Assembly: GCA_963711735.1 (NCBI GenBank)
Contig: CAVQFA010000003.1
Span: 284,367-348,366, forward strand
DNA length: 64,000 nt
Direction of reading: 5' to 3'
From: Candidatus Gottesmanbacteria bacterium
GTDB taxonomy: Bacteria; Patescibacteriota; Microgenomatia; UBA10105; UBA927
In this document: in pieces, positions 3,521 through 52,297 of the stretch
Layout of the letters: each line of letters begins with the position of its first letter
Position numbering within the stretch: position 1 is the first letter of the stretch
Notes under the pieces: model-generated
Databases searched by the model: none
What the model was told of the DNA's origin: nothing
Seen by the model: the letters and a program-made list of their open reading frames with translations, nothing else
Program-made: the position numbers and the translations under genes

Positions 3521-3526
3521 TGAAAT

Positions 3527-3914
3527 TATGGCGAAGATTTTATTCATAGAAGATGATCCTTTGATAGTTAAGATTTACTCGACAAGGCTCAAGGCAGACG
3601 GACACGATGTGACATCAGCAGAAAACGGGGAAGAGGGTTTAAAAAAAGTGTATGAAGTGAAACCTGATATCATCGTTTTGGATGTTATGATGCCACGTAT
3701 CGACGGTTTCGGAGTATTGGAAAAGCTCCGTGCAGATCCGCTATTCAGCTCAACACCAATTCTCATGTATTCGAACCTTAATAACGAAGATGAAATTACA
3801 CGGGCAAAAGAGATGAAAGCAACAGAGTTTATTGTAAAAGCGAATCTTTCTCCCACGCAGATGGTTGATAAGATTAAACAATACGTACCGCACGACGCCC
3901 CGTCTCCTTCCTAA
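3527..3914 (+). CDS. single-domain response regulator (CheY-like receiver)
   Basis: MAKILFIEDDPLIVKIY...IIVLDVMMP carries the receiver-domain acidic pocket and phospho-Asp context. The ATG at 3527 lies right after the kinase stop, so the longer 3432 ORF is a frame artefact. Confidence 0.8.
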
Positions 3915-9223: not shown

Positions 9224-9331
9224 CACTGTCAATGTATGAATTGACAACGCTTGGGAGCATTTGTTACGCTGGTAATGTCCGTAATGTTTGGACCTAAGAA
9301 GTAATGATTAAAGTGAAAGGGGGTGAACAGA

Positions 9332-9766
9332 ATGAATATAATTTCAAAACTAAAAAACAGAAAAGGATTTACGCTTATCGAATTGCTGGTAGTTATCGGT
9401 ATTATCGGAATCCTCGCAGCAGTTGTACTCGTTGCAGTTAATCCGGCGAGACAATTTGCCTCTGCACGCGATACGCAGCGGAGAGCTGATCTATACGGCA
9501 TAACGAATGCCATATATCAGTATGCGACGGAAAATAATGGCAATTTGCCCGTTATTATAACCGAAACACCAGGTCATATTGGTACCGGCGGTATCGATTT
9601 GGCGACAATAATAGTCCCGACGTATATTGCGGCAATGCCGAAAGATCCGTCAACCGGGACAGAAGCAGATACGCAGTACACAATCTACCGGGATATTAAC
9701 GGAAGAGTAGTTGCGAGTGCGTCAAGTGAATTAAATCCGGGCGCCAGCATCACCGTTATCAGGTAA
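9332..9766 (+). CDS. type IV pilin (prepilin with class III signal peptide)
   Basis: KNRKGFTLIELLVVIGIIGILAAV carries the canonical G/FTLIE prepilin-peptidase site. The RBS AAAGGGGG sits 8 nt upstream of the ATG at 9332. Confidence 0.85.
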   Translation: MNIISKLKNRKGFTLIELLVVIGIIGILAAVVLVAVNPARQFASARDTQRRADLYGITNAIYQYATENNGNLPVIITETPGHIGTGGIDLATIIVPTYIAAMPKDPSTGTEADTQYTIYRDINGRVVASASSELNPGASITVIR

Positions 9767-33594: not shown

Positions 33595-35046
33595 TTACTT
33601 CAAGCGCGGAAAGAGCGGCTTTTGGCTAACGATTTTCTGTTTGGAATATTGAGCGAGAATTACGCTTCCTGCGGAGGGAAGGAACGGAAGTAAAAGCGTT
33701 GCGATTTCCTGTATGGATGGTATGAGAGCATTTATAGTCTGAGTTTTTTCTTTTCCCGTTTGCTTCCACGGTTCACGACTGTCAATGAATTTATCCTCCG
33801 TTTTTATAAGAGACCATACGTACGCAAGCGCTTCATCAAAGCGGAATGATTCAAAAGCCAAACGGTAGATATTATGTTTTTCGGTTGTTGTCAAATCAGG
33901 AAAAGAAAGAGGTTTCGGGATTACAACATTATCTGTCTGGCATGCAAGTTTCGCAACCCTGCTTATTAGGTTTCCGAGGCCGTTTGCGAGGTCTGCATTA
34001 TAGAGTTCCTTAAATCGGGATTCGGAAAAGTCGCCGTCTGCAAAAGGGGGAATTTCCCTCAGGAAATAGTACCGCAATGGGTCTGCGCCGTATTTTATGA
34101 TAAGGTTAACAGGATCGATGACATTTCCCAGAGTTTTGCTCATCTTCTGTCCGTTGACTGTGAAGTATCCGTGTATAAAGATAGACTTCGGTAACTTAAG
34201 ATTCGCGGACAGGAGAAATGCAATCCAGTAAACTGCATGAAAACGTGATATTCCTTTGCCGATGACATGGACATCAGCCGGCCACCATTTTTCATACAAT
34301 TTTTGATCCCATCCGAATCCTATACCGGATTGATAGATATTGAGCGCGTCAAACCAAACATATATTTTTTGTGTCGGATCATCCGGCACGGGCACTCCCC
34401 AATTTCTCGCGCGCTCATTAGACCGGGATATTGAAATATCCTGAAGCGATTGTTTGAGGAATGATAAAACCTCGTTTTTACGGAATGTCGGCACAATACG
34501 TACGGTATCCGAAGTTATAAGATTGATAAGAGTTTTCTGGTATTTCGATAAACGGAAGAAATAATTCGTTTCTGAAACAACATCAAGCTTTTTGCCGGGA
34601 TGCTCGTAACATTCTCCGTTTTCATTCAGTTCCGTTTTACTGTAAAATGTTTCGCACCCGACACAATACAGACCTTCATATTCTTTCTTATAAATATCTC
34701 CCCGCGCTTCGCATAATCTCCAGAGTTTTTGGCTTGATTTGAAGTGTTTGTTCTCATCACTTCCGCGCTGAAAAAAGTCAAATTGTACATTGAGCTTGAC
34801 TGCCAGTTTTTCAAACAGCGCCGTATTTTCATTGATAAATTCACGGATATCTTTACCTGCCTGTTGGGCAGCCTGTACGTTTTTCAGCGCATTTTCATCG
34901 CCTCCCGAAAGGAGCGCGCAATTATCTCCGACTAAACGATGATACCGAGCAATAGCATCCGCCTGTACAAATTCGAGCGCGTGCCCTATATGTGGTTTAG
35001 CGTTAACGTACGGAATGGCTGTGGTTATATAAAATTTTCGTGTCAT
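33595..35046 (-). CDS. metG: methionyl-tRNA synthetase (short form)
   Basis: HIGH (PHIGHA), KMSKT, and the CVGC...CYEHPG zinc knuckle. The ATG at 35046 is preferred over the upstream TTG that the ORF track used. Confidence 0.9.
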   Translation of the reverse strand: MTRKFYITTAIPYVNAKPHIGHALEFVQADAIARYHRLVGDNCALLSGGDENALKNVQAAQQAGKDIREFINENTALFEKLAVKLNVQFDFFQRGSDENKHFKSSQKLWRLCEARGDIYKKEYEGLYCVGCETFYSKTELNENGECYEHPGKKLDVVSETNYFFRLSKYQKTLINLITSDTVRIVPTFRKNEVLSFLKQSLQDISISRSNERARNWGVPVPDDPTQKIYVWFDALNIYQSGIGFGWDQKLYEKWWPADVHVIGKGISRFHAVYWIAFLLSANLKLPKSIFIHGYFTVNGQKMSKTLGNVIDPVNLIIKYGADPLRYYFLREIPPFADGDFSESRFKELYNADLANGLGNLISRVAKLACQTDNVVIPKPLSFPDLTTTEKHNIYRLAFESFRFDEALAYVWSLIKTEDKFIDSREPWKQTGKEKTQTINALIPSIQEIATLLLPFLPSAGSVILAQYSKQKIVSQKPLFPRLK

Positions 35047-35078
35047 GCGGATAATTGTACCGTAAGCGTGTAGCAAGC

Positions 35079-35405
35079 TCAATCTATAGAGCGTTTGGAT
35101 AAATATGCATCAGATGTTACAACGAGGATGAGTAGTAAAATACTGTAGAGTGCTTCCCGCAGATAGAGAAACCGTAAGACAAGATAAATGATTCCTCCGC
35201 ATGTCATAAGAACCGCCCTTAGTACGTTGTTTGTGAGGTACATGACGGAGGAAAAGATGGCACATCCGATGAGAGTAATACAAATACCAATGTATAAATA
35301 TAGTTGCGGCGGATACGTATTGACAAACCAGCTGATAATACAAGCGAAAATAATTGCAGTAAACAACCATATTATATTATGTCGGGAAGTATTGAATCTC
35401 GTCAT
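35079..35405 (-). CDS. small membrane protein, hypothetical
   Basis: 3 TM. An internal Met start is chosen to avoid overlap with rmuC. Confidence 0.3.
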   Translation of the reverse strand: MTRFNTSRHNIIWLFTAIIFACIISWFVNTYPPQLYLYIGICITLIGCAIFSSVMYLTNNVLRAVLMTCGGIIYLVLRFLYLREALYSILLLILVVTSDAYLSKRSID

Positions 35406-35442
35406 ACGTTTTTCATTGTAGTCGTACGAAGCGGATGCTACA

Positions 35443-36483
35443 ATGATGCCTATTATGACTGTGGAATCTGTAAGTCTTCTTTTGGCAATTGCTCTGGGGT
35501 TTGGCATACTCTATTTCTTCATCAGAAATGAACTGAATAAGGTTACAAAAGAGCCGGAAAATAAAGCTCTTTTGGAATGGTTGAGAAGTATGCAGACGTC
35601 GATAGATAAAACCAATAAAGACCTCAATGAGGCAATGCGGGGAACGACAAGCGATGTCGCGCGTGCCATACAGTCAAATACGAAACAACTCAACGACAGG
35701 CTTGATAAGGCGGCAGAAGTAATCGGAGGGCTTCAGAAAAATCTGGGAGAGATGAGTGAGGTTGGCAGGGGAATTAAATCTCTGCAGGAATTTCTCCAAT
35801 CGCCGAAACTTCGGGGAAATATCGGTGAGCAGGTGCTTTCGGATATGATCGGTCAGACCTTTCCCAAAAATTCTTTTTATCTACAATACGCTTTTCATAG
35901 CGGAGCAAAGGTTGATGCGGTTCTCAAAACTGATGCCGGACTACTCTGTATTGATTCGAAATTTCCGATGGAGAACTTTACTGCCATGCACAAAGGGGAG
36001 ACGGAAAGTTTGAGAAATGCAGCAAAAAAAGACCTGATGAACGATGTAAAAAAACATATAGGAGATATAAGCAAAAAATATATCTTACCCGAGGAGGGAA
36101 CGATGGATTTCGCCCTCATGTATGTACCGTCTGAAGCAGTCTATTACGAAGTGGTGAACAATACCGATCTTATGGATTTTGCCCGGAAATCGAGAGTTTA
36201 TCCTGTATCTCCCAACACGCTCTATGCGCACCTTCAGGTATTATTATTATCTTTTCAGGGTAAAGAGCTCGAAAACCGTTCGCGGGAAGTGTTCCGGCTT
36301 CTTCGGGCTATCCAAAAAGATTACGGGAAGACGGAAGAGTCATTATCGGTTCTCGGCAAACATATCAATAACGCATATAACTCTATGAGTACCGTGACCG
36401 GCGCATTTACCCTTCTTGGGCAGAAATTATCAAGAACCCAGACGTTAAAAGATACCGGGGATAGTAAGGAAATCGAGAGTTAA
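35443..36483 (+). CDS. rmuC: DNA recombination protein RmuC
   Basis: N-terminal TM, coiled coil, and C-terminal nuclease-like domain with [18 protein letters not shown] (the RmuC D...D/E-x-K core). Confidence 0.7.
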
Positions 36484-36485
36484 AT

Positions 36486-38310
36486 ATGACATCTTCAATT
36501 GTCCGAAAAAAATATATAGATTTTTTTAAAGCCAGAGGGCATGCGGAGATTCCGTCAGCTCCTTTAGTGCCTGAAAATGACCCATCAACACTTTTTAACT
36601 CAAGCGGCATGCAACCTTTAATTCCATATCTTCTCGGAGAACCGCATCCGTCAGGGAAAAGACTTGTCAATTCGCAGAAATCATTCAGGGCGCAGGATAT
36701 CGATGAAGTCGGTGATAACAGGCACACGACGTTTTTTGAAATGCTCGGAAATTGGTCTTTGGGGGATTACTTTAAAAAAGAACAACTTACCGTGGTTATT
36801 TGAATTCTTAACAAAAGAACTTAGTCTTGATCCTAAACGGTTATACGTAACCGTATTTGAAGGGAATGATTCCGTGCCGAAAGATGATTCCTCAATTTCC
36901 ATATGGAAAGATATTTATTCAAATGTAAACATTGATGCTGAAGTTGGAGAACGTATATTCCTTTATCCGGCGAAAAACAACTGGTGGAGCAGGTCCGGGG
37001 AACCGGAAAAAATGCCCGCCGGTGAACCTGGCGGACCGGACAGTGAAGTGTTTTACGATTTCGGAGCGGAGTTAAAAATTCACGAAAAATCTAAGTATAA
37101 AAATGAGAGATGCCATCCTAACTGTGAATGCGGTCGGTTTATGGAAATTGCTAACTCGGTATTTATGCAGTATCAGAAACAATCCGACGGTAGTCTCAAA
37201 GAACTCTCACAGAAAAACGTTGATTTTGGCGGGGGCCTGGAGCGTCTGACAGCAGCAACCGATAATACTCCTGATGTATTTCAAACTGATTTGTATACGT
37301 CGTTGACAGGCATACTCGAGAATGTTTCGAAGCAGAAATTCGGAGAAAAACAGGAAGAAACGAAGGCGATGAGGATTATTGCTGACCACATAAAAGGATC
37401 AGTCATGATGATGAGTGACGGAGTTACACCATCCAATAAACAGCAGGGATATATATTGCGGAGGCTCATACGACGCGCTCTTCTATATGGGAGAAACATA
37501 GGACTTACATCGGATTGGAAATATATAGGGGATTTGGTTGAACCGGTTGCGGTTATTTATAAAGACGCGTACCCCGGCGTATCGGCGAAAGTATCCGCGA
37601 TCAAACACACTATAGAAGAGGAAGCGCTCCGTTTCGGGAAAACGCTCGAGAAAGGGTTGAAAGAAATCGATAAGATCGATACATTGGACGGATCCAATGC
37701 GTTTAAGCTGTACGAAACGTACGGTTTCCCGTGGGAAATGACAGAAGAGTTGGCACGGAAGAGAGGTCAATTGCCGGACAGGAAGCAGTTTGAATCGGAG
37801 TTTCGTAAACACCGGGAGCTTTCAAGGACCGCGGCAGCCGGAATGTTTAAAGGCGGACTGCAGGATCATAGCTTTGATGTGACAAAACTACATACCGCAA
37901 CACATCTTCTCCATCAGGCGCTTCGTATGACGCTTGGGGATCATGTTTCACAGAAAGGTAGCAATATTACGGCAGAAAGACTCCGGTTTGATTTTTCCCA
38001 TTCGTTGAAAATGACGGATGAACAAATCCGAAAGGTAGAAGATATTGTTAACGACCAGATCAAGAAAGATTTACAGGTAACATATACAACAACAACGTAT
38101 AAGGAAGCCATAAAGGATGGAGCATTGGCTTTTTTCGGAGAGCGGTATCCGGAAAAAGTAAAGGTATATTCAGTAGGTACATTCTCCAAAGAAATATGCG
38201 GAGGACCGCATGTAGAGCGTACCGGGAAAATCGGTCAATTTAATATTATAAAAGAAGAGTCTGCTGGTGCCGGAATCCGAAGAATCTACGCATCTGTACA
38301 CACGAAATGA
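36486..38310 (+). CDS. alaS: alanyl-tRNA synthetase (catalytic + editing domains, no C-Ala domain), interrupted by apparent +1 frameshift at ~36783-36790
   Basis: Frame 0 (36486-36803) encodes the AlaRS N-terminus ...[17 protein letters not shown]. Frame +1 (from ~36787) continues [12 protein letters not shown]...; the editing-site HxxxH/CGGPHV motif is near the end. The two frames join if one nucleotide of the AACAAC repeat is removed. Confidence 0.75.
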
Positions 38311-38385: not shown

Positions 38386-40842
38386 ATGAAGCTGCCATCG
38401 ATTGTTACAGAATTATTTCAGAAAAAGAAGAAAGAACAGAAATTGTACCTCAGTCTTGTTCTTGAATCCGATCATGTGGTCGGGGCTGTTTTCCAAATTC
38501 TTGATGACGGAACACCTGAGATAGAGCACGCTGTCGCAAAGCGCATAGCATCCGATTCATGGGAGGACAGAATAATCGGTGCTGATGCTGTCATCTCTGC
38601 TTTGGAGAAGAAATTAGAAACGACTGATTTTCATGAGGTCATTTTTGGGCTCCCTGCATCATATTTGTCACCAAACGGCTCAATAACCACGTCTGTGAGG
38701 CCTCACCTGAAAGATGTAGCGACAAAACTCACACTCAATCCAATTGGTTTTGTCCCTATACATCAGGCACTATTGTATAAATTGAAAACAGAAGAAGGCA
38801 TACCTCCTTCAATAATTTTATTGGAAGTAACCACGAGGACTGTTACGCTCTCATTATTTAAAGTCGGAATGCTTACAGGCCAATCGATCATACCCAATAA
38901 CAATTCGGTAGTTCAGGAAATAGAAAATGCTCTTCGAAGTTTTCCGAACGCCGAAGTACTCCCGTCCAGGATTTTATTATCCGGCATAGATGACGGAAAA
39001 TTAGAGAATTTGAAGAAACGCATCACGGAACATCCGTGGACGATACGCGCAAATTTTCTGCATTTTCCCCGTATAGAAACACTACCCCTTGATGTTTCTG
39101 TAGAGAGTGTCTCTTTAGCAGGCGCGAGTGAAATCGGCGGTACTGAAGGTTTTCACTCCGACAATCCGGAACAGGAAATATCGGATGGTACGGGTGATTC
39201 TCCGGAATCCCAACACCCATCTGTCGATACGTACTCTCCTGAAAATTTTACAGACGATGGAAGTGTTGAAGGGAGACCGGATGATCTGAAAGAATACTCT
39301 ACAGGTATAAAACAACCCTCCGAACCACAAGAGAACGATGAGGTAATAGGCGAAACTTCAAAAGAAATAAAGCCAAAAGATACAAGTAATATTGGTAAAT
39401 ATGCTGATGATACAACCCTAACCAATCAGGAAGACATAACAGAGAAGTCGAACGTCACATTCGTGAACCCTGAGGATATCGGTTTCACCAAAGACACGGA
39501 CGTTTTATCAGAAAAATCTGAACTCACACGTGCACAAGCTCTGAAAACTCGTAAACCTGAAAGTACCGATATGTCAGTCGAAGTCAAAGGTAAGCACAGC
39601 ACGCCACCTGTATATTCTCTGGTACTCGTGAAAGGAAAAGAAATTTTCTTGAAAACAAGAAGCATTATTGCAGGGATAGTTCACAAAATACCAATCAGCA
39701 GGAAATTGTTGTTGATCGGAGGTATTGTTGTAACGGTTGCAATCATTCTTTTCGGACTTTTCTATTGGATTATGCGTGAATTTCCAAAGGCAGAGGTTAC
39801 GCTTACGGTTGTCCCGGAAATACTTCAGGCTAAAGAGACTTTAGAATTCAGTACAGGCATAACGACACCTGACAAAGAAAAAAAGATATTTCCTGCTGAG
39901 AAAATTGAGACACAAATTTCTCTGGATAAAAATATCTCAGTTACAGGAAAGAAAAAAGTCGGTGATCCTGCAACCGGCAGCGTGGTTATATATAACAAAG
40001 CAACTTCATCGAGAAAATTATCAAAAGGCACCATCCTGACGAGTGACAAATTATTATTTACATTAGATGCCGATATACAGGTTGCATCTGCATCGGAAAG
40101 TATCGGATCCATAACATTTGGTAAAACAAACGCCCAGGTTACTGCCTCTGCAATCGGAACATCCAGTAACCTGCCTGCAAATACGGAATTTGTTTTTAAG
40201 GATATTTCTTCAAGTATACTTATTGCCCGCAACGATAGCGCATTTACCGGTGGAACAAGCAGGGATGTTACCGTTGTGACAAGAGCTGACTATGATTCCT
40301 TAGTGAAACTTGCTCTTGAAGATGTTAGAAAAAATGCGCAACAGGAGTTATCAGGGAGTATGAGCGGAACGATGAAGTTAATCAGTAATACGGTAGCGAC
40401 GACCGTTAAAGATAAGTCTTTTTCTAACGAATTGGACGAAGAGGCAAAACAGCTATCTGGAACGGTGAATATAGGTATTACCGGTTTAGCATACAACGAA
40501 GATGCATTAAAACGTTTTATTGAAACATTGGAAATGCAGAATGTCCCGTCCGGATACCGGATAATGACTGATAAATCCACCGCGACCATAGACTCTGTCA
40601 AAATCGGGAAAGACGGCACCGTCACAGCAAGTATTTCGTACAAAGGGACCGCAATCCCTTCGTTTACGGAAACGGATTTGTCAAAATTGATAGCCGGAAA
40701 GAGAATATCCGATGCACGGACAGATCTCACAAAGATACGCGGAATAAAAGACGTTTCATTTAAAGTAACACAAACTTTACGGCCGGATTATCTCCCTTTG
40801 AAAAGCGATCGTGTTGTGATAACGGTTCTTTTAAATGAATAA
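38386..40842 (+). CDS. 818-aa bitopic protein with N-terminal actin-like (FtsA/PilM-like, degenerate) domain, acidic linker, TM, large extracellular domain
   Basis: YLSLVLESDHVVGAVF and ILLEVTTRTVTLSLFKVG resemble actin-fold phosphate-1/2 strands. TM segment is LLLIGGIVVTVAIILFGLFYWIM. Confidence 0.4.
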   Translation: MKLPSIVTELFQKKKKEQKLYLSLVLESDHVVGAVFQILDDGTPEIEHAVAKRIASDSWEDRIIGADAVISALEKKLETTDFHEVIFGLPASYLSPNGSITTSVRPHLKDVATKLTLNPIGFVPIHQALLYKLKTEEGIPPSIILLEVTTRTVTLSLFKVGMLTGQSIIPNNNSVVQEIENALRSFPNAEVLPSRILLSGIDDGKLENLKKRITEHPWTIRANFLHFPRIETLPLDVSVESVSLAGASEIGGTEGFHSDNPEQEISDGTGDSPESQHPSVDTYSPENFTDDGSVEGRPDDLKEYSTGIKQPSEPQENDEVIGETSKEIKPKDTSNIGKYADDTTLTNQEDITEKSNVTFVNPEDIGFTKDTDVLSEKSELTRAQALKTRKPESTDMSVEVKGKHSTPPVYSLVLVKGKEIFLKTRSIIAGIVHKIPISRKLLLIGGIVVTVAIILFGLFYWIMREFPKAEVTLTVVPEILQAKETLEFSTGITTPDKEKKIFPAEKIETQISLDKNISVTGKKKVGDPATGSVVIYNKATSSRKLSKGTILTSDKLLFTLDADIQVASASESIGSITFGKTNAQVTASAIGTSSNLPANTEFVFKDISSSILIARNDSAFTGGTSRDVTVVTRADYDSLVKLALEDVRKNAQQELSGSMSGTMKLISNTVATTVKDKSFSNELDEEAKQLSGTVNIGITGLAYNEDALKRFIETLEMQNVPSGYRIMTDKSTATIDSVKIGKDGTVTASISYKGTAIPSFTETDLSKLIAGKRISDARTDLTKIRGIKDVSFKVTQTLRPDYLPLKSDRVVITVLLNE

Positions 40843-40847
40843 CAAAT

Positions 40848-41585
40848 ATGCCCATATACCGTTACGTTAAAAAATACCCGCGTAAAAAGTTTCAGCCTCC
40901 GCGGTTTGCTTCATATCTGCTTATATGTATGGGGATCGTGATGCTTTTATGGGTTGCATGGCCGATAGTAAGTTTTAAGTTTATTTCTGTTATCGGTTTC
41001 TCGCGGACGATAACCCCCTTAGGTTCGCAAAACGGTCAAATTTCTCCGATCGGAGACGGAATTGTCCATGCTGCAAGTCAGGATCAGACGAACTATGCTG
41101 ATCCGAACACCTGGTTTCCCGGCAAACCGCAAAAAAAGATCGTTACTCCAATAAATACATACTCGTTATCTATTCCGAAGCTGCACATTGAAAACGCAAC
41201 CGTTGTTATTGCCGGCGATTCACTCGATAAAAGTCTCATCCACTACGGGGGAACTGCAATACCAGGGGAATACGGTAACACCGTCATTTTTGGGCATTCT
41301 ACGCTACCGGCTCTCTATGATCCAAAAAGCTATAAAACAATATTTTCCTTATTACCAACACTCGATGCGGCGAGCGCAACCCGTCCGGGAGATGACATAT
41401 TTATCACATATGACGAAATTACGTACAGATACGAGGTTATCGATATTGTTGTTACTAAACCGCAGGATTTATCTCCGTTAGAGCAAACATTTGATGATTC
41501 GTACGTGACTCTTGTTACGTGTGTACCTCCTGGTACCTACTGGGAGAGGATGTATGTAAAAGCCAGAATTATTCCATTACAATGA
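40848..41585 (+). CDS. sortase family transpeptidase
   Basis: N-terminal TM, His motif VIFGHS, catalytic TLVTC, and a downstream Arg. Confidence 0.75.
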   Translation: MPIYRYVKKYPRKKFQPPRFASYLLICMGIVMLLWVAWPIVSFKFISVIGFSRTITPLGSQNGQISPIGDGIVHAASQDQTNYADPNTWFPGKPQKKIVTPINTYSLSIPKLHIENATVVIAGDSLDKSLIHYGGTAIPGEYGNTVIFGHSTLPALYDPKSYKTIFSLLPTLDAASATRPGDDIFITYDEITYRYEVIDIVVTKPQDLSPLEQTFDDSYVTLVTCVPPGTYWERMYVKARIIPLQ

Positions 41586-42865
41586 AAGTATCTACTTCTG
41601 TTTCATCAGACATATCGAATAAAGAGCTGGCAATTACTGCAATAAAAAAGAAGCTCATTGGGAAAAAATTATCATACAATGAAATTTTTGCCGTCATGGA
41701 TCAGATCGCAAACGAACGTTTAGGACCGGTTCTCACAACGTATTTTGCTGCAGCAGGATTTAAAGAAGGTTTTAGTCCGGACGAATTGTATTATTTAACC
41801 AAAGCAATGGTAGACACCGGTCCGAAACTGCACTTCCCGGGGATAATTGCCGGAAAACATTCTATAGGTGGAGTTGCCGGAACAAGAACAACAATGATTA
41901 TTGTTCCTATTATTGCAGCAGCCGGATTTCTTATCCCAAAAAATTCATCCCGCGCAATAACATCTCCCGCCGGAACAGCGGATACTATGGAGGTTTTGGC
42001 TCCGGTTTCGTTTACACCGACACAGATAAAAAAAATCGTGGAAAAAATTGGCGGATGCATTGTATGGGGAGGCAATCTCGGTTTAGCTCCCGCGGATGAC
42101 GTTATTATTCAGATAGAACAGCCGTTGGCATTTGAATCATATGATAAGTTCATTATTGCCATAATGGCAAAGCAAATTGCATCGGGCGTAACACATTTAG
42201 TGCTTGATATTCCCGTTGGTCCAACGATGAAAGTGAATCATTTTAAAGACGCAGATATCATAGCAAAAAAATTTCAATATCTTGCGAAAAGATTCGGCAT
42301 TACCTTAGTTACGGATATCAATGAAACACGTCAGAATGCCGGACGGGGTGTGGGACCTTTACTTGAAGCAAAAGATGCGCTATCCGTTCTAGAACAGCAT
42401 CCGGAGAGACCTTTGGAACTTGAAAGCAAAGCACTTCGTTTGGCGGGTAAACTTCTTACGATTTGTTTTCGGAAAAAACCGTCAAAATTCATTTCAGACC
42501 CTGAGGAATACGCACGTGAATTACTCACAAGCGGTGTTGCGGCAAAGAAGATGAGTGAAATTATTAAAGCCCAGGGAGGAAACCCTCATATAACCGCATA
42601 TGATTTAAAACCCGGTAATAAGCAATATCACGTGCTCGCGCCGCGCCACGGGAGAATTATTGCTATAAACAATCAGCATATTTCCGTCATCTGCAGAATT
42701 CTCGGATGTCCCGTCGATAAACGATCCGGTATGTATCTCAACAGAAAACTTGAAGACCAGGTAGACAAAGGTGATATACTATGTACGCTTTATGCTGATG
42801 ATGCCTGGAGAATAAAAGAAGCGTGTGATACGCTCAAGAACATTCCTATATATACAGTACGATGA
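41582..42865 (+). CDS. thymidine / pyrimidine-nucleoside (AMP) phosphorylase family, glycosyltransferase family 3
   Basis: KHSIGGVAGTRTTMIIVPIIAAAG...ITSPAGTADTMEVLA matches the TP phosphate/ribose-binding core. The ATG overlaps the sortase stop (ATGA). Confidence 0.8.
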   Translation: MKVSTSVSSDISNKELAITAIKKKLIGKKLSYNEIFAVMDQIANERLGPVLTTYFAAAGFKEGFSPDELYYLTKAMVDTGPKLHFPGIIAGKHSIGGVAGTRTTMIIVPIIAAAGFLIPKNSSRAITSPAGTADTMEVLAPVSFTPTQIKKIVEKIGGCIVWGGNLGLAPADDVIIQIEQPLAFESYDKFIIAIMAKQIASGVTHLVLDIPVGPTMKVNHFKDADIIAKKFQYLAKRFGITLVTDINETRQNAGRGVGPLLEAKDALSVLEQHPERPLELESKALRLAGKLLTICFRKKPSKFISDPEEYARELLTSGVAAKKMSEIIKAQGGNPHITAYDLKPGNKQYHVLAPRHGRIIAINNQHISVICRILGCPVDKRSGMYLNRKLEDQVDKGDILCTLYADDAWRIKEACDTLKNIPIYTVR

Positions 42866-44122: not shown

Positions 44123-44153
44123 GAGGCGAACGTTCATTGTTCGCTTCTTTTTT
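44123..44153 (+). promoter_or_regulatory. terminator-like hairpin + T6 in the rpoB leader (putative attenuator)
   Basis: GAGGCGAAC / GTTCGCTTC 9-bp stem (one G-U), 7-nt loop, then TTTTTT, lying 35 nt before the rpoB ATG. Confidence 0.35.
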
Positions 44154-44187
44154 CGTTTATATCGTCCATTCTGCAGAATTTATTTTA

Positions 44188-47100
44188 ATGGCAAAAGCTG
44201 ATCCACAACCAACCAGAGATTATTGGGGAGCGAATTATTCAAATATTCCTCAATTGGATTTAACTCTTGTACAACGAGAGTCTTATCAATGGTTTTTGGA
44301 AGAAGGGATAAGAGAACTTCTTTCCGAAGTTACCCCCATAACTGATTTTACGGGTAAGAATTGGGAATTGGTATTCGGAGATTATTTTTTTGGAAAGCCA
44401 AGACTCACACCAATAATTGCCCGTGAAAAAGGTTTGACGTATGACATGCCACTTCGCGTTACGGCAACACTGACAAATAAGCAAAACGGCCATCATGTAA
44501 CACAGGAAGTATTCTTGGGAGATATTCCTGCGATGACAGAACATGGTACGTTTATTATTAACGGCATTGAACGTTGTGTGGTTAATCAGCTCGTGCGTTC
44601 TCCGGGGATTTATTTTACGGGTACCGTAGATTCCACAACCGGAAGGACATTGTACAGCGCTGAAATCCGTCCGATGCACGGAAGTTGGCTTGAATTTATT
44701 ACGACAAGAAACGACGTCATAATGGTAAGAATTGACAGACGCAGAAAATTTGTTGCATCCACATTTCTTCGGGCTATTGGTCTCGGAACAAATGAAGAAA
44801 TTCAAAAAGCATTTCAGGACATTGAAGTAAATGGTGACCATAATTTTATCGAATCAACATTGTCAAAAGATACGACAACAAATCAGACAGAGGCTATTTT
44901 GGAGCTGTACCGGAAACTTCGGCCCGGCGAACCAATAGTGCTGGAAAATGCTCAGGAACTCATGCGAAGCATGTTTTTTGATTACCGGAGATATTCTCTT
45001 GAACGGGTAGGCAGATATAAAATGAATAAGAAATTGGAAATTGCTGTATCGAATCAAAAGAATAATTGGGTTTTGACAAAAGAAGATATTTTAGGAAGTG
45101 TAAGATATTTAATCAATTTAGCTAATGGTAAAGGTGACGTTGATGATATTGATCATCTCGGAAACCGCAGGGTTCGCAGGGTAGGTGAACTGGTTGCTAC
45201 AAACGCATTCAGGGTTGGTTTATTGCGTCTCGAGCGGTCGGTCAGAGAAAAAATGAGTTTAGCTGGTCCTGCAGCCATAGATTTAACTCCAACGCAGCTT
45301 ATCAACGCGCGTCCGATTATTGCTGCAATAAATGATTTCTTCCGTACAAGCCAATTATCTACAATACTCGATCAAACCAATCCATTATCAGAAGTTGATA
45401 ATCTCAGACGTCTCACTGTTATGGGCGTCGGTGGAATTTCCCGGGAGCGGGCCTCGTTTTCCATCCGTGATATCAATGCATCTCAATATTCACGGATTTG
45501 TCCGGTCAGAAGTCCTGAAGGACCGAATATCGGGCTTGTAACATACATGTCCCTCTTTACCAGGGTAAATGAATTCGGTTTTCTGGAAGCTCCTTACCGA
45601 AAAGTAGAAAAAGTGAAATCAGGCGAAACCGTAAGGATGAGAATTACCGATGAAGTGGTATATATGGATGCCAGTGATGAGCAATATCACCATATAACAC
45701 ACGCATCAATATCTATAGATCCTAAAGGATATATTCTGGATGAACGGGTTCCTACCAGGTATAAGGGAGAATTTTTGGAAACAGACGTGACAAATATAGA
45801 ATTTATAGATTCTGTTCCAAAGCAGGTAGTGGGGGGTCCGGCATCGTTAATTCCGTTTATTGCGCATGACGAAGCAAACCGTGCGCTTATGGGAACACAC
45901 ATGCAATGTCAGTCCGTGCCATTATTAATTCCTCAATCGCCGGTTATCGGGACCGGGATGGAAAGTCCGATTGCATCTGCAATGGACAGAGTTATCCGGG
46001 CGAAAGACGATGCAACAGTAACGTTTGCTGACGGTTCTATGGTTGTTGTGGAGACGAAGGATAAACAGAAAGAGACGTATCTGATAGAAAAATTTAAAAG
46101 ATCAGCACAATCCACAAGCTACAATCAAAAGGTGCTTGTGAAAACAGGAGAAAAGGTAAGTGCAAATACAGTACTCGTGGACGGACCGGCATGTGACGGG
46201 GGCGAACTGGCGCTCGGATCAAATTTGGTTATTGCATATATGAGTTTTGACGGACTTGGATACGAGGACGCAATTGTTATATCAGACCGGTTAGTGAGAG
46301 AGGATGTCCTGACAAGCATTAATATAGAAGAACACGAAGCAAGCGTAGTGGATACAAAACTCGGACCTGAAGAAACTACCAGAGATATTCCGAATGTGGG
46401 TGAGGAAGCATTAAGAAATCTGGACGCGGACGGTATAGTCGTTGTTGGTGCTGAAGTCGGTCCCAACGATATTCTTGTTGGTAAGATTGCACCAAAAGGC
46501 GAAACTGAACTTACAGCAGAAGAAAGATTGCTACGGGCAATTTTCGGAGAAAAAGCCCGTGAAGTGCGGGACACAAGCCTTCGCATGCCGCATGGAGAAA
46601 GAGGAACAGTCATTGAAGTGAAAATACTGGATAAAGAAAAGGGTGATGAATTGGAGCCAGGTACCAACAGAAAAATAATCGTACGCGTTGCACAAATCAG
46701 AAAAGTAGTAGTCGGGGATAAACTTGCTGGACGACACGGAAATAAAGGTGTTATTTCAAAGATCGTGCCACAGGCAGATATGCCGTATATGTCTGACGGC
46801 ACAGTTGTAGATATAATAATTTCTCCTCTTTCCGTATTGTCCCGTATGAATTTAGGTCAACTACTTGAGGCACACCTGGGTTTTGCGGCATCAAAGCTGA
46901 ATAAAAAAATCGCATTACCGGTTTTTGAACATATTTCGGAGGAGAAAATTACAGACATGCTTAAAAAGGCAAGCCTTTCTCTTGACGGTAAAAGTGAGTT
47001 GTATGACGGACGAACCGGAGAGTTGTTTAAAGAGCGGGTTGTGGTAGGAATTGAATATGTCATGAAACTGATTCACATGGTAGAAGATAAAACGCATGCG

Positions 47101-47616
47101 CGTTCAACTGGACCATATTCACTTGTTACCCAGCAACCTCTCGGAGGAAAAGCGCAAATGGGCGGACAGAGATTGGGAGAAATGGAAGTTTGGGCGTTAG
47201 AATCTCATAGAGCTTCACATGTCCTTCAGGAAATGCTCACAATTAAATCAGATGACGTTGTAGGAAGAGCTAAGGCTTTTGAGGCTATTGTAAAAGGGAC
47301 GGAAATTCCGGCATCAACAGTTCCGGAATCATTTAAAGTTTTAGTTAAAGAATTACAGGCTTTAGGATTAAATGTTATTCCAACCGGCGTAGTTACTGCC
47401 AAACCGGTAAGTTCAACGCAATCTGATCAACCGGTTGTTCCACAACCATCATCTCAGACATCAAACCCGGTTCCTCCACAAACTTCAGTACCCAACGATG
47501 TGAAAGATGACACTAAAGAGGAAGTTGCGATCGTTCCTGAGATTATCAGTGAACCGGAAGTTCTTAAGGAAGATGTCAAAGCAATTGAAAATCCTCATTC
47601 AGAGGGGGAGGCATAG
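44188..47616 (+). CDS. rpoB: DNA-directed RNA polymerase subunit beta, with ~100-aa low-complexity C-terminal tail
   Basis: Full RpoB domains present. The ATG at 44188 (MAKADPQPTRDYWG...) is preferred over the 44137 frame extension. Confidence 0.95.
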   Translation: MAKADPQPTRDYWGANYSNIPQLDLTLVQRESYQWFLEEGIRELLSEVTPITDFTGKNWELVFGDYFFGKPRLTPIIAREKGLTYDMPLRVTATLTNKQNGHHVTQEVFLGDIPAMTEHGTFIINGIERCVVNQLVRSPGIYFTGTVDSTTGRTLYSAEIRPMHGSWLEFITTRNDVIMVRIDRRRKFVASTFLRAIGLGTNEEIQKAFQDIEVNGDHNFIESTLSKDTTTNQTEAILELYRKLRPGEPIVLENAQELMRSMFFDYRRYSLERVGRYKMNKKLEIAVSNQKNNWVLTKEDILGSVRYLINLANGKGDVDDIDHLGNRRVRRVGELVATNAFRVGLLRLERSVREKMSLAGPAAIDLTPTQLINARPIIAAINDFFRTSQLSTILDQTNPLSEVDNLRRLTVMGVGGISRERASFSIRDINASQYSRICPVRSPEGPNIGLVTYMSLFTRVNEFGFLEAPYRKVEKVKSGETVRMRITDEVVYMDASDEQYHHITHASISIDPKGYILDERVPTRYKGEFLETDVTNIEFIDSVPKQVVGGPASLIPFIAHDEANRALMGTHMQCQSVPLLIPQSPVIGTGMESPIASAMDRVIRAKDDATVTFADGSMVVVETKDKQKETYLIEKFKRSAQSTSYNQKVLVKTGEKVSANTVLVDGPACDGGELALGSNLVIAYMSFDGLGYEDAIVISDRLVREDVLTSINIEEHEASVVDTKLGPEETTRDIPNVGEEALRNLDADGIVVVGAEVGPNDILVGKIAPKGETELTAEERLLRAIFGEKAREVRDTSLRMPHGERGTVIEVKILDKEKGDELEPGTNRKIIVRVAQIRKVVVGDKLAGRHGNKGVISKIVPQADMPYMSDGTVVDIIISPLSVLSRMNLGQLLEAHLGFAASKLNKKIALPVFEHISEEKITDMLKKASLSLDGKSELYDGRTGELFKERVVVGIEYVMKLIHMVEDKTHARSTGPYSLVTQQPLGGKAQMGGQRLGEMEVWALESHRASHVLQEMLTIKSDDVVGRAKAFEAIVKGTEIPASTVPESFKVLVKELQALGLNVIPTGVVTAKPVSSTQSDQPVVPQPSSQTSNPVPPQTSVPNDVKDDTKEEVAIVPEIISEPEVLKEDVKAIENPHSEGEA

Positions 47617-47624
47617 GAACATTT

Positions 47625-50600
47625 ATGGATAAAAAAGCCACATTTGCAAATATAGTTGATTTTACAGGGTTAAAAATTAAACTAGCTTCGCCGGAAGAGA
47701 TAAAGGCGTGGTCATACGGAGAAGTAACTAAACCGGAAACGATAAATTATCGTACACTAAAACCGGAAAAAGACGGTTTATTCGACGAACGTATTTTTGG
47801 ACCGACAAAAGACTGGGAATGTTATTGCGGAAAATATAAACGGATTCGGTACAGAGGTATTATCTGTGATAAGTGCGGTGTTGAAGTGACTCAAAGTAAA
47901 GTACGTCGTGAAAGAATGGGACACATATCGCTGGCGGCTCCTGTTGTACATGTCTGGTTCTTTAAAGGTGCACCTTCCAAATTATCTCTTCTTCTTGATA
48001 TTAGTCCACGGGCATTGGAAGGAGTAATTTATTTTGCACAGTATCTAGTAGTGAAAGTAGATGAGGAAAAGAAAAAAGAAATTCTCGAAAAAATTATTGA
48101 ATCAGGAAACATCCGTATAAAAGAAGTTGAAAACCGATATAAAGAAAATATTGACCAAAAAAAGGATCAGTTTGCCAAAGAAAAATCAAATATTAAGGAT
48201 AAAGTAAAAGGTTCAGAAGCGAGAGACTTGGCAGCATCAGAGCTTACGTTAAAAGAAAAGCAGGAAATAAATGCATCGGATGCACAGCTTGAACAGGAAA
48301 AACAGAAAGTGAAAGAAGTTGTTGATTCCCTTATTTCTATTGTGAAGGGAATACACCAGTTTGCAACAATTACAGAGGATGAATACCTTCGCCTTTTTGA
48401 ATATGATGCAACATCATGCTTTACCGTAGCCATGGGTGCTGAAGCAGTATCAGAAGTAATTAAAAAACTTGATTTAGATAAAATAGCTGCGGACTTACGG
48501 GAAGAGATTCGGACAAGTTCAGGACAACGACATATTAAGGCAACGAAGAGGCTGCGTGTTGTTGACGGAATCCGAAAAGCTGCGGTGAATCCGTCATGGA
48601 TGATTATTAACACCTTGCCGGTTATTCCTCCTGATTTACGGCCGATGGTACAGTTAACCGGCGGACGTTTTGCCACAAGTGATTTAAATGATTTATACCG
48701 CCGTGTTATCAATAGAAATAACCGTCTTCGCCACCTGATGGATTTAGGTGCTCCTGAGATAATTCTCAGAAATGAAAAACGCATGCTTCAGGAAGCGGTC
48801 GACAGTCTTATTGATGCTACACAACGTCCGTCATCACGTGCGGTTATTCAGCCCTTGCGTTCTCTTTCTGATATGCTTCGGGGCAAACAGGGACGTTTCA
48901 GACAGAATTTACTCGGTAAAAGAGTAGATTATTCAGGCAGGTCAGTTATTGTCGTCGGTCCTGATTTAGCATTGACGCAATGCGGTATTCCGAAAGAAAT
49001 GGCTCTTGAGATGTTTAAACCGTTTGTATTAAGAGAACTTATCGTACGCGGAATAGCTCCGAATGTTAAAAACGCTAAAAATGTTCTTGAAAAAAGAACA
49101 CCTGAAGTTTTTGATATTTTGGAAGAAATAACGAAAAATCATCCGGTGCTTCTCAACCGCGCGCCCACACTTCATAAACTTGGAATTCAGGCATTTTACC
49201 CAATTCTTATAGAAGGTTCTGCTATACGCATTCATCCGTGTGTGTGCGCAGGATATAATGCGGATTTTGACGGAGATCAGATGGCTGTCCACATCCCGTT
49301 ATCAAAAGAATCGCAGGAAGAGGCCCGGACTCTCATGCTTCCGACTCATAATTTATTAAAACCGGCAGACGGATCTCCGATTACAGTTCCAAATAAAGAA
49401 ATGGTTTTAGGTTGTTATTATATTACGACAATCAATTCTTCATATAATATCAAGGATGTTGATGCGCTTCCAAAATATGGGAGCGTTCAGGACGCAATAT
49501 ACGATTGGCAAAGCGGAGGCATCGACATCCGGCAACCTATACGTGTTAACAGAGAAAATGAATATTTAACTACATCTTTAGGACGTATCCTTTTTAATGA
49601 ACGTTTGCCTCAGGCACTTCAGTTTATCAATGAACCTGTAAAAGCATCAATGATTAAAACAATAATCACAAAAGCTCTTTCTCTTTTTTCAAAGGAAGAA
49701 GTGGTGAAACTTATCGATGCAATAAAAAATATCGGTTTTTGGGGAGCAACAATATCCGGAGGTTTATCTGTTTCGGTATTTGATAATCATATAATTAAAG
49801 AAAAATCAAACATCATTAAAGAAACCGAAGAGAGAGTAAAAGTTGTAGAAAATAACTATTTTCAGGGGCTTATAACTCTCGAAGAAAAGAAACGGTTATC
49901 AAATGAAATATGGATTGAGATCACTGAAAAAATTGCCAATATGACCTGGGAGAATTTGAAAGAAACGAACCCGGTGAAAATGATTATTGAATCAGGAGGA
50001 GCACGCGCATCAAAAGATCAATTGAAACAGTTATGTGCAGTCAAGGGACTTGTAGTTGATCCATTGGGCAAAATTGTGGAACTTCCGACTAAATCGAATT
50101 ATCGTGAAGGACTGTCGATTTTTGAATACGTTACCAGTACCCGTGGTTCACGCAAAGGTTTGACGGATTCAGCATTAAAAACTGCAGATGCTGGATATTT
50201 AACCAGAAGACTTGTTGATGTGGCACATGACATGATTATCCGAATGGAAGATTGTGGCACTGAAGAAGGGTTTGAAATTCATCGTCAGGAAGACCGTCAA
50301 ACACCTTTTATAAACCGAATTATCGGACGGATTGCGGCTACCAATATTGTTGTTCCCGGAGGAAAGAAAGTTATTGTCCAGAAGGGTGAATACATAACTG
50401 AGGAACACGCAAAACTGATTGATGAACATGAAGTGAAATCCGTAAGCGTACGCTCACCGATTACATGCGGAGCAATGGTTGGTATGTGTGCACAATGTTA
50501 CGGACGTGATTTTTCTACAACACAACCTGTAGAGATTGGCGTTCCTGTTGGCGTTGTAGCAGCCCAGTCTATCGGTGAACCGGGAACTCAACTCACCATG

Positions 50601-51353
50601 CGCGTACGTCATGCCGGAGGTATAGTCGGATTGGACGTCACCCAAGGTCTTCCCCGTGTGGAAGAACTTTTTGAAATTCGGACACCCCGGAATATGTCAC
50701 CCATATCGGAAATAGCCGGTAAGGCGGACGTCGAAGAAACCGAGCACGGATACAAAGTCACAATCCGGAACACTTCGATAAAACCTGCAGAAGAGCGGGA
50801 ATACATGATACCACTCACATCAGAGCTGAAAGTAAAAAACGGCGATCTTATTTCTACCGGGGATCAATTAGCAAACGGTAATTTGGATATTAAAGAAGTT
50901 TTACAGGTTCGGGGACTTCGAGGTGCACAAAAATATTTGATCACTGAAATCCAAAGAGTATATGAACTACAGGGTATCATGATTGCGGATAAACATTTTG
51001 AGGTTATAGTTCGCAAGATGAGTGATAAAGTGCGTATCGATAACTCAGGAGACACGACTTTACTTCCCGGCGAGCTGATTGACAGATCCAAATTCCAGGA
51101 AGAAAATGCACGGGTTCTGTCCCAGGGGGGTGAACCGGCAACAGCACAAATTATTATCCTTGGTATTACACGTGCATCGTTATATACGGAGTCGTGGTTG
51201 TCTGCAGCATCATTCCAGGAAACGACGAACGTTCTGACGGATGCCGCTCTTGCCGGCAAGGAAGATAAGTTGCTGGGTCTTAAAGAAAACGTTATAATCG
51301 GACGACTCATTCCCGTATCACCTGAGCGTGCAATTATTGGTATTAAACCATAG
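47625..51353 (+). CDS. rpoC: DNA-directed RNA polymerase subunit beta'
   Basis: Zn finger [20 protein letters not shown] and the catalytic loop NADFDGDQM. Confidence 0.95.
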   Translation: [1242 protein letters not shown]

Positions 51354-51374
51354 AGTTTATTATTTTTACAGAGT

Positions 51375-51812
51375 ATGCCGACAATAAATCAATTAGTCAG
51401 AAAAGGAAGAAAATTTAAATCAAAAAAGATAAAGGCAACAGCGCTTCGAAAGTTTTTTAATGCAAAAGACCGTTTAATGAAGCAAATGCCCTCACCGTTT
51501 AAACGCGGAGTTGTGACTGTCGTCAAAACTATGACGCCAAAAAAACCTAATTCCGCACTCAGAAAAATTGCACGTGTCCGTTTATCAAATAAACAGGAAG
51601 TTACTGCATATATTCCGGGAATCGGTCATGAATTGACAGAACACGCAATAGTATTAGTTCGGGGAGGCAGAGTCCCTGATCTTCCCGGAGTAAAGTATCA
51701 TATCGTCCGGGGTAAGTATGATTCAACCGGAGTGGCAAACAGGAAAAAAGGCAGGAGCCGTTACGGAACAAAGAGAGGAAGTACAGGACCCGTTACCGCT
51801 GCCGCCAGTTAA
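51375..51812 (+). CDS. rpsL: 30S ribosomal protein S12 (extended, 145 aa)
   Basis: [23 protein letters not shown] and [13 protein letters not shown] are present. Confidence 0.95.
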
Positions 51813-51817
51813 TTTAT

Positions 51818-52297
51818 ATGCCGAGAGCAGGAAAAATCATCAAAAAAATTTCAGAACCCGATCCGGTTTACGGTAACCGTCTAGTTACGCGGTTGGTCAA
51901 CCGTATTATGGAACGCGGGAAAAAGACAGTCGCACAAGGGCTGGTATACCGAGCATTTGAAGTAATCAAAGAGAAAGGCATGGAAGATCCTATCAAAGTA
52001 CTGGATAATGCCGTAAATACAGTAGGTCCTAAAATAGAAGTTCGGCCCAGGAGAGTCGGGGGGGCTTCATACCAGGTTCCGATGGAAGTCAGGGGTGATA
52101 GGCGGGTAGCTCTTGCTTTACGGTGGATCGTAAGTTTCGCAAAAAAAAGATCAAATAAGGAGTATAAAACATATGCTGATAAGTTAGCTGCTGAGCTTAT
52201 TGATGCTGCAAACGGCGTCGGCGATGCAATAAAAAAACGGGATACGGTACACCGTATGGCCGAAGCAAACAAAGCATTTGCTCATTTCCGGTGGTAA
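51818..52297 (+). CDS. rpsG: 30S ribosomal protein S7
   Basis: MPRAGKIIKK... 159 aa with S7 core conservation. Confidence 0.95.
   Translation: MPRAGKIIKKISEPDPVYGNRLVTRLVNRIMERGKKTVAQGLVYRAFEVIKEKGMEDPIKVLDNAVNTVGPKIEVRPRRVGGASYQVPMEVRGDRRVALALRWIVSFAKKRSNKEYKTYADKLAAELIDAANGVGDAIKKRDTVHRMAEANKAFAHFRW

What the first reader, a model, noticed from the sequence alone, without database searches (positions are those of the whole stretch)
36486..38310. Alanyl-tRNA synthetase split by a +1 frameshift in an AACAAC repeat
The AlaRS N-terminus (...GDYFKKE) is read in one frame and stops at 36803. The rest of the enzyme ([12 protein letters not shown]...) continues in the +1 frame from ~36787. Deleting one base in GAACAACTTACC restores a continuous EQLPW junction.

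AlaRS is essential, so this is either an assembly or sequencing indel in a homopolymer or short repeat, a very recent pseudogenisation, or, less likely, programmed +1 frameshifting. The enzyme also ends right after the editing domain (CGGPHV...), lacking the C-Ala/DHHA1 domain.
Basis: seen in the sequence. Interest (0 to 1): 0.5.

Follow-up and report, generated by a model that had tools for sequence, protein, structure and literature searches.

The report
One-base frameshift in ordinary alaS gene
The gene for the essential enzyme alanyl-tRNA synthetase in this candidate-phyla-radiation bacterium is interrupted by one extra base, but is otherwise normal, so this is most likely an assembly error or a very recent mutation, not a new biological mechanism.

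Summary
Frame 0 (36486-36803) encodes AlaRS residues 1-101 plus four junk codons. The +1 frame encodes the rest, up to the stop at 38308-38310.

Homologues read GDYFKKEQL(P/T)W, which places the extra base within CTTACCG (36786-36792). That is just 3' of the AACAAC repeat and not in the A6 run.

The repaired 607-aa protein:
- matches the curated short AlaRS family NF002436 end to end;
- keeps every family-invariant residue;
- is as conserved as intact orthologues in both parts;
- sits at the syntenic alaS position.

Lack of C-Ala is the lineage norm: all 120 best homologues are 563-643 aa with the same two domains.

Nothing supports programmed +1 frameshifting:
- the 0-frame A-site codon ACC is common;
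- CTT-ACC occurs in frame 11 times in other genes;
- there is no upstream Shine-Dalgarno-like element and no downstream structure;
- the shifted junction is absent from 80 related genomes and from JGI metagenomes.

No other gene in the 64 kb is broken, and none of 168 homopolymer runs of 6 nt or more causes a shift.

Best reading: an isolated 1-nt indel artefact (about 60%) or a very recent or minority real mutation (about 30%). Reads are needed to decide between them. Interest is low.

The parts
36486..36788 (+). alaS, 5' part in frame 0. It encodes AlaRS residues 1-101 (M...GDYFKKEQL), which cover class II motifs 1-2 of the catalytic core.
   Evidence: PF01411 positions 2-103. tblastn with P0001 residues 1-101 gives 87% identity.
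36786..36792 (+). CTTACCG, the 7-nt interval that contains the one surplus base. Deleting any single base here restores EQL(P/T)W.
   Evidence: Codon-level comparison with 43 related loci, all in frame. Homologue junction motif. Invariant E99, Q100, L101 and W103.
36789..36803 (+). Out-of-frame tail of ORF1 (T V V I, then TGA at 36801-36803). This is junk created by the shift.
36790..38310 (+). alaS, 3' part in frame +1. It encodes residues 102-607: the rest of the catalytic domain, the tRNA-recognition domain and a compact AlaX-like editing domain (HxxxH, CGGPH). The stop is at 38308-38310.
   Evidence: PF01411 105-451, PF07973. (matches A. aeolicus AlaRS 1riq and archaeal editing cores). (NF002436 1-592/595).
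36693..36705 (+). AGGA-N5-ATG in the +1 frame, the start a gene caller would probably pick for the 3' piece. It lies inside the codons for the conserved QDIDE, so it is incidental. It would put 28 out-of-frame residues in front of residue 101.
   Evidence: Read directly from the sequence and the frame +1 translation. That it is incidental is my inference.

Best explanation
This is the ordinary, single, orthologous alaS gene of a Gottesmanbacteria-like (Microgenomates/Patescibacteria) genome. It belongs to the short AlaRS class of about 600 aa that lacks C-Ala. Its reading frame in this sequence record is broken by one surplus nucleotide within CTTACCG (36786-36792).

The most likely cause is an isolated single-base insertion introduced during sequencing, assembly or consensus calling. 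In the cell, the gene would then be translated conventionally as one 607-aa polypeptide reading ...GDYFKKEQL(P/T)WLFEFLT....

Shown: the shift, its position, the intactness and conservation of both halves, the orthology and synteny, and the absence of recoding signals or recurrence.

Inferred: that the extra base is an artefact rather than a real allele.
For: 1. The pieces abut exactly in the Pfam profile, and the fusion scores as one domain.
2. The repaired protein matches NF002436 alanine--tRNA ligase at 1-604 against profile 1-592/595, with 721.8 bits against a cutoff of 529. That is almost the same as the intact orthologue P0001.
3. It keeps every column that is invariant in a 22-sequence family alignment, on both sides of the shift.
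4. Its mean identity to the family is 0.705 (N-terminal part 0.836, the rest 0.679). This falls within the range of intact orthologues (0.66-0.72), so there is no sign of relaxed constraint.
5. There is only one lesion in 1.8 kb.
6. The gene order alaS, ~800-aa protein, sortase, PYNP-like gene matches the intact orthologues. This makes it the resident essential copy, not a decaying paralogue. No second alaS is present in the window.
7. All 120 best homologues and all 80 genome loci are single intact ORFs.
8. An essential single-copy gene carrying a disabling lesion as the dominant allele is biologically implausible (established knowledge: AlaRS is essential).
Against: The surplus base is not in a long homopolymer, which is where sequencing indels concentrate. 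The adjacent A6 run and 168 other runs of 6 nt or more in the window are all in frame. No other gene in the 64 kb is broken. The assembly therefore looks clean, and an isolated error has to be invoked. No reads and no independent assembly of the same strain could be found to confirm the error.
Confidence: 0.6

Rival explanations
1. The insertion is a genuine, very recent mutation. It could be a pseudogenising allele carried by the sequenced clone or single cell, or a minority or strain variant that the assembler happened to place in the consensus. The carriers would be non-viable or declining, or would depend on another alaS copy elsewhere in the genome.
For: The assembly is otherwise clean and the site is not a long homopolymer. 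That slightly lowers the prior for a technical error. The absence of any further lesion or rate acceleration fits an event that is evolutionarily instantaneous.
Against: AlaRS is essential and normally single-copy (established knowledge). This copy sits at the conserved syntenic position of the sole alaS of relatives. No second alaS is in the window. A disabling allele should not dominate a natural population. Nothing observed here distinguishes this reading from an artefact.
Confidence: 0.3
2. Programmed +1 ribosomal frameshifting. The peptidyl-tRNA-Leu on CUU re-pairs on UUA, as at the Ty1 site CUU-AGG-C or the prfB site CUU-UGA-C. Translation then continues with CCG-UGG and yields EQLPW.
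For: The only point in favour is that the shift site happens to contain CUU-A. CUU is the P-site codon used in the two classic +1 sites (my own knowledge of prfB and Ty1). The product would exactly match the family consensus EQLPW.
Against: - There is no 'hungry' A-site codon. ACC runs at 15.2 per 1000 codons and makes up 22% of Thr codons. It is not a stop.
- CTT-ACC occurs in frame 11 times, and CTT-Axx 112 times, in ordinary genes of the window.
- No Shine-Dalgarno-like element lies 3-10 nt upstream; the sequence there is AAAAAAGAACAA.
- The downstream RNA is no more structured than shuffled sequence (z = 0.27).
- The 0-frame stop lies four codons further on, not at the site.
- The shifted junction is absent from 80 related genome loci, while the in-frame version of the pattern matches 36 of the 80. 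It is also absent from the JGI metagenome collection.
- The A-site codon encodes Thr, not Ala, so there is no autoregulatory logic for AlaRS.
Confidence: 0.04
3. A functional split enzyme. ORF1 (residues 1-105) and a separately initiated ORF2 (ATG 36703 with AGGA five bases upstream) would assemble non-covalently, as the alpha and beta subunits of Nanoarchaeum equitans AlaRS do.
For: A start codon with an SD-like AGGA exists in the +1 frame upstream of the junction. Natural split AlaRS is documented in Nanoarchaeota, where both subunits are needed for full activity (PMC11392972).
Against: The break lies inside the class II catalytic core, between motifs 2 and 3 (alignment to A. aeolicus AlaRS). 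The N. equitans alpha subunit aminoacylates minihelices on its own, without G3:U70 specificity (PMC11392972, title and introduction), so its break presumably lies outside the catalytic core. The papers read here do not give the exact split position. ORF2 would carry 28 out-of-frame residues and ORF1 four junk residues. The AGGA-ATG is simply the codons for the conserved QDIDE. No relative has the split.
Confidence: 0.01

Closest known systems
Short bacterial alanine--tRNA ligase (NCBIfam NF002436 / PRK01584), as found in Candidatus Gottesmanbacteria and other Patescibacteria
   Same: The repaired protein matches end to end (721.8 bits against a cutoff of 529). It has the same two Pfam domains and the same length as the 120 best homologues, at up to 76% identity. 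It shares the same downstream synteny.
   Different: Only the single surplus base that breaks the frame at 36786-36792 differs.
Canonical bacterial AlaRS (TIGR00344; E. coli 875 aa; A. aeolicus catalytic fragment, PDB 1riq)
   Same: [quoted passage not shown] TIGR00344 scores 562 bits, above its cutoff of 457.
   Different: There is no helical linker or C-Ala/DHHA1 domain. The editing domain is compact (about 140 aa) and resembles AlaXM and the archaeal AlaRS editing core. This is lineage-wide and not specific to this gene.
prfB (RF2) and Ty1 programmed +1 frameshift sites (CUU-UGA-C and CUU-AGG-C)
   Same: A CUU codon lies at the point where the frame changes. A +1 re-pairing of tRNA-Leu would give the consensus protein.
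   Different: There is no stop or rare codon in the A site, no upstream SD-like stimulator and no conservation in relatives.
Split AlaRS of Nanoarchaeota (AlaRS-alpha and AlaRS-beta; PMC11392972)
   Same: AlaRS is encoded as two ORFs.
   Different: In Nanoarchaeota the two genes are separate and distant, the split is conserved among relatives, and the alpha subunit is catalytically active on its own. Here the ORFs overlap and are out of frame, the break lies inside the catalytic core, and the split is unique to this sequence.

Membership tests
Alanine--tRNA ligase, short form (NF002436/PRK01584) | Whole-protein score above the curated equivalog cutoff, with full-length profile coverage | tested here: met
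   the repaired 607-aa protein scores 721.8 bits (cutoff 529), with residues 1-604 against profile 1-592/595.
Alanine--tRNA ligase, short form (NF002436/PRK01584) | A single uninterrupted ORF encoding the whole enzyme | tested here: not met
   the frame changes at 36786-36792 and ORF1 stops at 36803. All 120 homologues and all 80 loci are uninterrupted.
Alanine--tRNA ligase, short form (NF002436/PRK01584) | Conserved catalytic and editing residues retained (class II core, HxxxH and CxxxH zinc motifs of the editing site) | tested here: met
   every column invariant across 22 family members is kept. These include H469, H473 and C571-G-G-P-H575.
Programmed +1 ribosomal frameshift (prfB/Ty1 type) | P-site codon that allows +1 re-pairing | tested here: met
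   CUU followed by A. Whether re-pairing onto UUA is possible depends on the tRNA-Leu anticodon, and no tRNA gene is in the window.
Programmed +1 ribosomal frameshift (prfB/Ty1 type) | Slowly decoded 0-frame A-site codon (a stop or a rare codon) | tested here: not met
   ACC runs at 15.2 per 1000 codons and 22% of Thr codons. CTT-ACC is in frame 11 times in other genes.
Programmed +1 ribosomal frameshift (prfB/Ty1 type) | Stimulatory element (an SD-like sequence about 3 nt upstream, or downstream structure) | tested here: not met
   The upstream sequence is AAAAAAGAACAA. The nearest G-run, GGGGG, lies 19 nt upstream. The downstream fold has z = 0.27.
Programmed +1 ribosomal frameshift (prfB/Ty1 type) | Conservation of the shift in orthologues | tested here: not met
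   The shifted junction pattern gives 0 of 80 genome loci and 0 in JGI metagenome contigs. The in-frame pattern gives 36 of 80.
Programmed +1 ribosomal frameshift (prfB/Ty1 type) | Full-length trans-frame protein actually produced | not testable with these tools
   This needs proteomics or a reporter assay.
Naturally split AlaRS (Nanoarchaeota alpha/beta) | Two independently translated genes with clean termini, a split outside the catalytic core, and conservation among relatives | tested here: not met
   The break is at residue 101, inside the catalytic core. Both pieces carry junk residues. No relative is split. The comparison draws on PMC11392972.

The most novel reading that the evidence does not exclude
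The extra base is real and fixed, and the cell still makes full-length AlaRS. It would do so by +1 slippage of peptidyl-tRNA-Leu from CUU onto UUA at CAA-CUU-ACC-G. This would be a lineage-specific recoding event in an essential aminoacyl-tRNA synthetase of a CPR bacterium, working without the usual stimulators, perhaps because of a reduced tRNA set.
Probability: 0.04. Interest if true: 0.7.

Novelty: already known. Interest (0 to 1): 0.08.

Why it matters
It matters mainly for annotation quality. A gene caller will report this essential marker as two fragments or as a pseudogene. (alaS/TIGR00344 is one of the standard bacterial single-copy markers, from my own knowledge.) That can depress completeness estimates or suggest a false loss of function in a CPR genome. 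The frame should be checked against reads and corrected or flagged. The C-Ala-less architecture is a curated, lineage-wide form and is not evidence of decay. If the base proved real and the enzyme were still made, it would be a rare bacterial +1 recoding case. Nothing found here points that way.

Tried and rejected
1. Exact-sequence look-ups of ORF1, RmuC, the 818-aa neighbour and RpoC, to find the source genome or an independent assembly. All were negative.
2. A metagenome scan for this strain's junction with either 3 or 4 bases between CAA and CCG. No match. No read-level or independent check was therefore possible.
3. A scan of GTDB genomes with the family alignment. It returned 80 intact relatives at 65% identity or less.
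4. The idea that the shift lies in the A6 run or the AACAAC repeat. Rejected, because that would replace the invariant E99 and Q100.
5. Other frameshifted genes in the window as a sign of an error-prone assembly. Five suspicious adjacent or overlapping ORF pairs all proved to be separate complete genes. The gene map is contiguous.
6. Long-standing pseudogene. Rejected because of normal conservation and invariant residues.
7. A second alaS in the window. None found.
8. Rfam and tRNA scans of the window. Nothing found.
9. A literature search for C-Ala-less AlaRS in Patescibacteria. No specific paper was found in the library. One malformed literature query failed.

Full report
**Observation.** The region was read and translated in all three forward frames.
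- Frame 0 opens at ATG 36486 and reads MTSS...[23 protein letters not shown], stopping at TGA 36801-36803 (105 aa).
- The +1 frame is open from 36664 to 38310. From 36787 it reads [12 protein letters not shown]...[37 protein letters not shown].
- In Pfam, ORF1 matches tRNA-synt_2c (PF01411) profile positions 2-103. The +1 piece matches positions 105-451 plus tRNA_SAD (PF07973). A fusion with one base removed scores as one uninterrupted stretch at E 7.5e-121.

The split of an AlaRS gene by a shift into the +1 frame is therefore confirmed.

**Where exactly the lesion is.** The 120 best homologues almost all read [17 protein letters not shown] at this point.
- In a 22-sequence alignment, E99, Q100, L101 and W103 are invariant and position 102 is variable. 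It is mostly P, but also T, L, S, H, Q and A.
- In the window, E-Q-L are encoded in frame 0 (GAA CAA CTT) and W in frame +1 (TGG).
- The surplus base must therefore be one of the seven in CTTACCG, 36786-36792. Deleting C, T, T or A gives EQLPW. Deleting C, C or G gives EQLTW.
- A deletion in the neighbouring A6 run or inside AACAAC would give KKNN or DN and destroy the invariant residues.
- Codon-level comparison with 43 related loci shows every one in frame, with assorted Leu codons followed mostly by CCG.
- CTT is the commonest Leu codon here (33%). The simplest ancestor is CTT CCG with an inserted A, but this cannot be proved.

**What the gene is.**
- The best hits are Candidatus Gottesmanbacteria and other Patescibacteria, at up to 76% identity. 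All are single ORFs of 563-643 aa with PF01411 and PF07973 and no DHHA1.
- The repaired protein matches NCBIfam NF002436 (PRK01584, alanine--tRNA ligase, 595 positions) end to end at 721.8 bits against a cutoff of 529. This is essentially the same as the intact orthologue P0001. It also passes TIGR00344 over the catalytic half.
- Against solved structures, residues 5-447 align with the A. aeolicus catalytic and tRNA-recognition fragment. Residues 466-601 align with the editing core of archaeal AlaRS and with AlaX.
- The absence of C-Ala is therefore the known, curated short form of the enzyme and the norm for the lineage. It is not a sign of truncation.

**Is the gene decaying?** No.
- The repaired protein keeps every column that is invariant across the family, on both sides of the shift. 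This includes the editing-site H469/H473 and C571-GGP-H575.
- Its mean identity to 21 orthologues is 0.705 (0.836 for residues 1-101, 0.679 for the rest). That is inside the range of the intact proteins among themselves, 0.66-0.72.
- There is one lesion in 1.8 kb.
- Downstream gene order is alaS, an ~800-aa protein with a weak Baseplate_J hit, sortase, then a pyrimidine-nucleoside-phosphorylase-like gene. This matches the contigs that carry the intact orthologues P0001 and P0006. This is the resident orthologous copy, and no second alaS lies in the window.

**Is it programmed?** I tested the features that define known +1 sites.
- The site does contain CUU-A, the P-site codon of the prfB and Ty1 sites (from my own knowledge). 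A slip to UUA would give the consensus EQLPW.
- The 0-frame A-site codon ACC is neither a stop nor rare. It runs at 15.2 per 1000 codons and 22% of Thr codons.
- CTT-ACC occurs in frame 11 times, and CTT-Axx 112 times, in other genes of the window.
- The ten bases upstream are AAAAAAGAACAA, with no Shine-Dalgarno-like element.
- The 82 nt downstream fold no better than shuffles (z = 0.27).
- The A-site codon is Thr rather than Ala, so the shift could not sense AlaRS activity.
- I wrote a degenerate pattern for N-W-x-x-G-D-Y-F-K-x-E-Q-L followed by one extra base before x-W. It hits the window once. It hits 0 of 80 related genome loci, while the in-frame version hits 36 of 80. It hits nothing in the JGI metagenome collection.

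The shift is therefore unique to this sequence and not a conserved recoding event.

A functional split enzyme is also unlikely.
- The break lies inside the class II catalytic core.
- Both pieces would carry junk residues.
- The only plausible ORF2 start (AGGA-N5-ATG at 36693-36705) is simply the codons for the conserved QDIDE.
- In Nanoarchaeota the natural split gives two distant genes, and the alpha subunit is active on its own (PMC11392972).

**Error or real mutation?** The tools cannot decide this.
- The source genome, or any near-identical strain, is absent from the protein and contig collections. Four exact look-ups were negative, as was the junction scan for this strain. The closest AlaRS is only 76% identical.
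- Within the window the assembly looks clean. About 57 tightly packed genes show no other break. There are 168 homopolymer runs of 6 nt or more and no Ns.
- That cleanliness argues against a generally indel-prone technology and slightly raises the chance of a real allele.
- Against that, a disabling lesion in an essential, single-copy, otherwise perfectly conserved gene should not be the dominant allele of a living population.
- My estimates are: isolated artefact about 0.6; real but very recent or minority mutation about 0.3; recoding or a split enzyme about 0.05 together.

**Verdict.** This is an ordinary short-form alaS with a single-base frame error. It is useful as an annotation flag and is not a discovery. 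Read pile-ups at 36770-36810 would settle the question.

Noticed in passing
window 36486-38310 and 120 homologues (P0001-P0120): The whole Gottesmanbacteria/Patescibacteria group uses a ~600-aa AlaRS without the helical linker or C-Ala. Its compact editing domain (~140 aa) resembles AlaXM and the archaeal AlaRS editing core more than the bacterial one. NCBIfam curates this form as NF002436. I found no paper in the library on how these enzymes bind tRNA without C-Ala.
   Followed up: partly
window 38386-40842 (+), then 40848-41585 and 41519-42865: An 818-aa protein with only a weak Baseplate_J-like hit (residues 523-624) lies directly downstream of alaS, followed by a sortase and a pyrimidine-nucleoside-phosphorylase-like gene. 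The same four-gene order is kept in relatives at about 75% AlaRS identity (L081, L082 and the P0006 contig). It may be a sortase-anchored surface protein.
   Followed up: partly
window 33595-35082 (-): The methionyl-tRNA synthetase is only 495 aa. It has the catalytic tRNA-synt_1g domain, and no Pfam hit to a C-terminal tRNA-binding domain was found. This is another shortened synthetase, consistent with a reduced CPR genome.
   Followed up: no
window 35079-35507 (-) and 35443-36483 (+): A 142-aa ORF with no Pfam hit overlaps, by 65 nt and divergently, the longest reading of the RmuC gene. The true RmuC start is probably further downstream. RmuC ends at 36483, three bases before the alaS ATG.
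   Followed up: no
window 1-64000: There are no tRNA genes and no Rfam family above the gathering score in 64 kb of densely packed genes (GC 42.7%). The window includes rpoB-rpoC-rpsL-rpsG at 44137-52297, a histidine kinase and response regulator pair at 2186-3914, and a pilin-like N-methylation-motif protein at 9323-9766.
   Followed up: partly
genome loci L001, L002, L004, L006-L008 and others: Many GTDB records that carry this Patescibacteria-type short AlaRS are titled 'uncultured Gammaproteobacteria', 'Bdellovibrionota' or 'Pseudomonadales'. These look like mislabelled MAG taxonomy in the public record titles rather than horizontal transfer.
   Followed up: no
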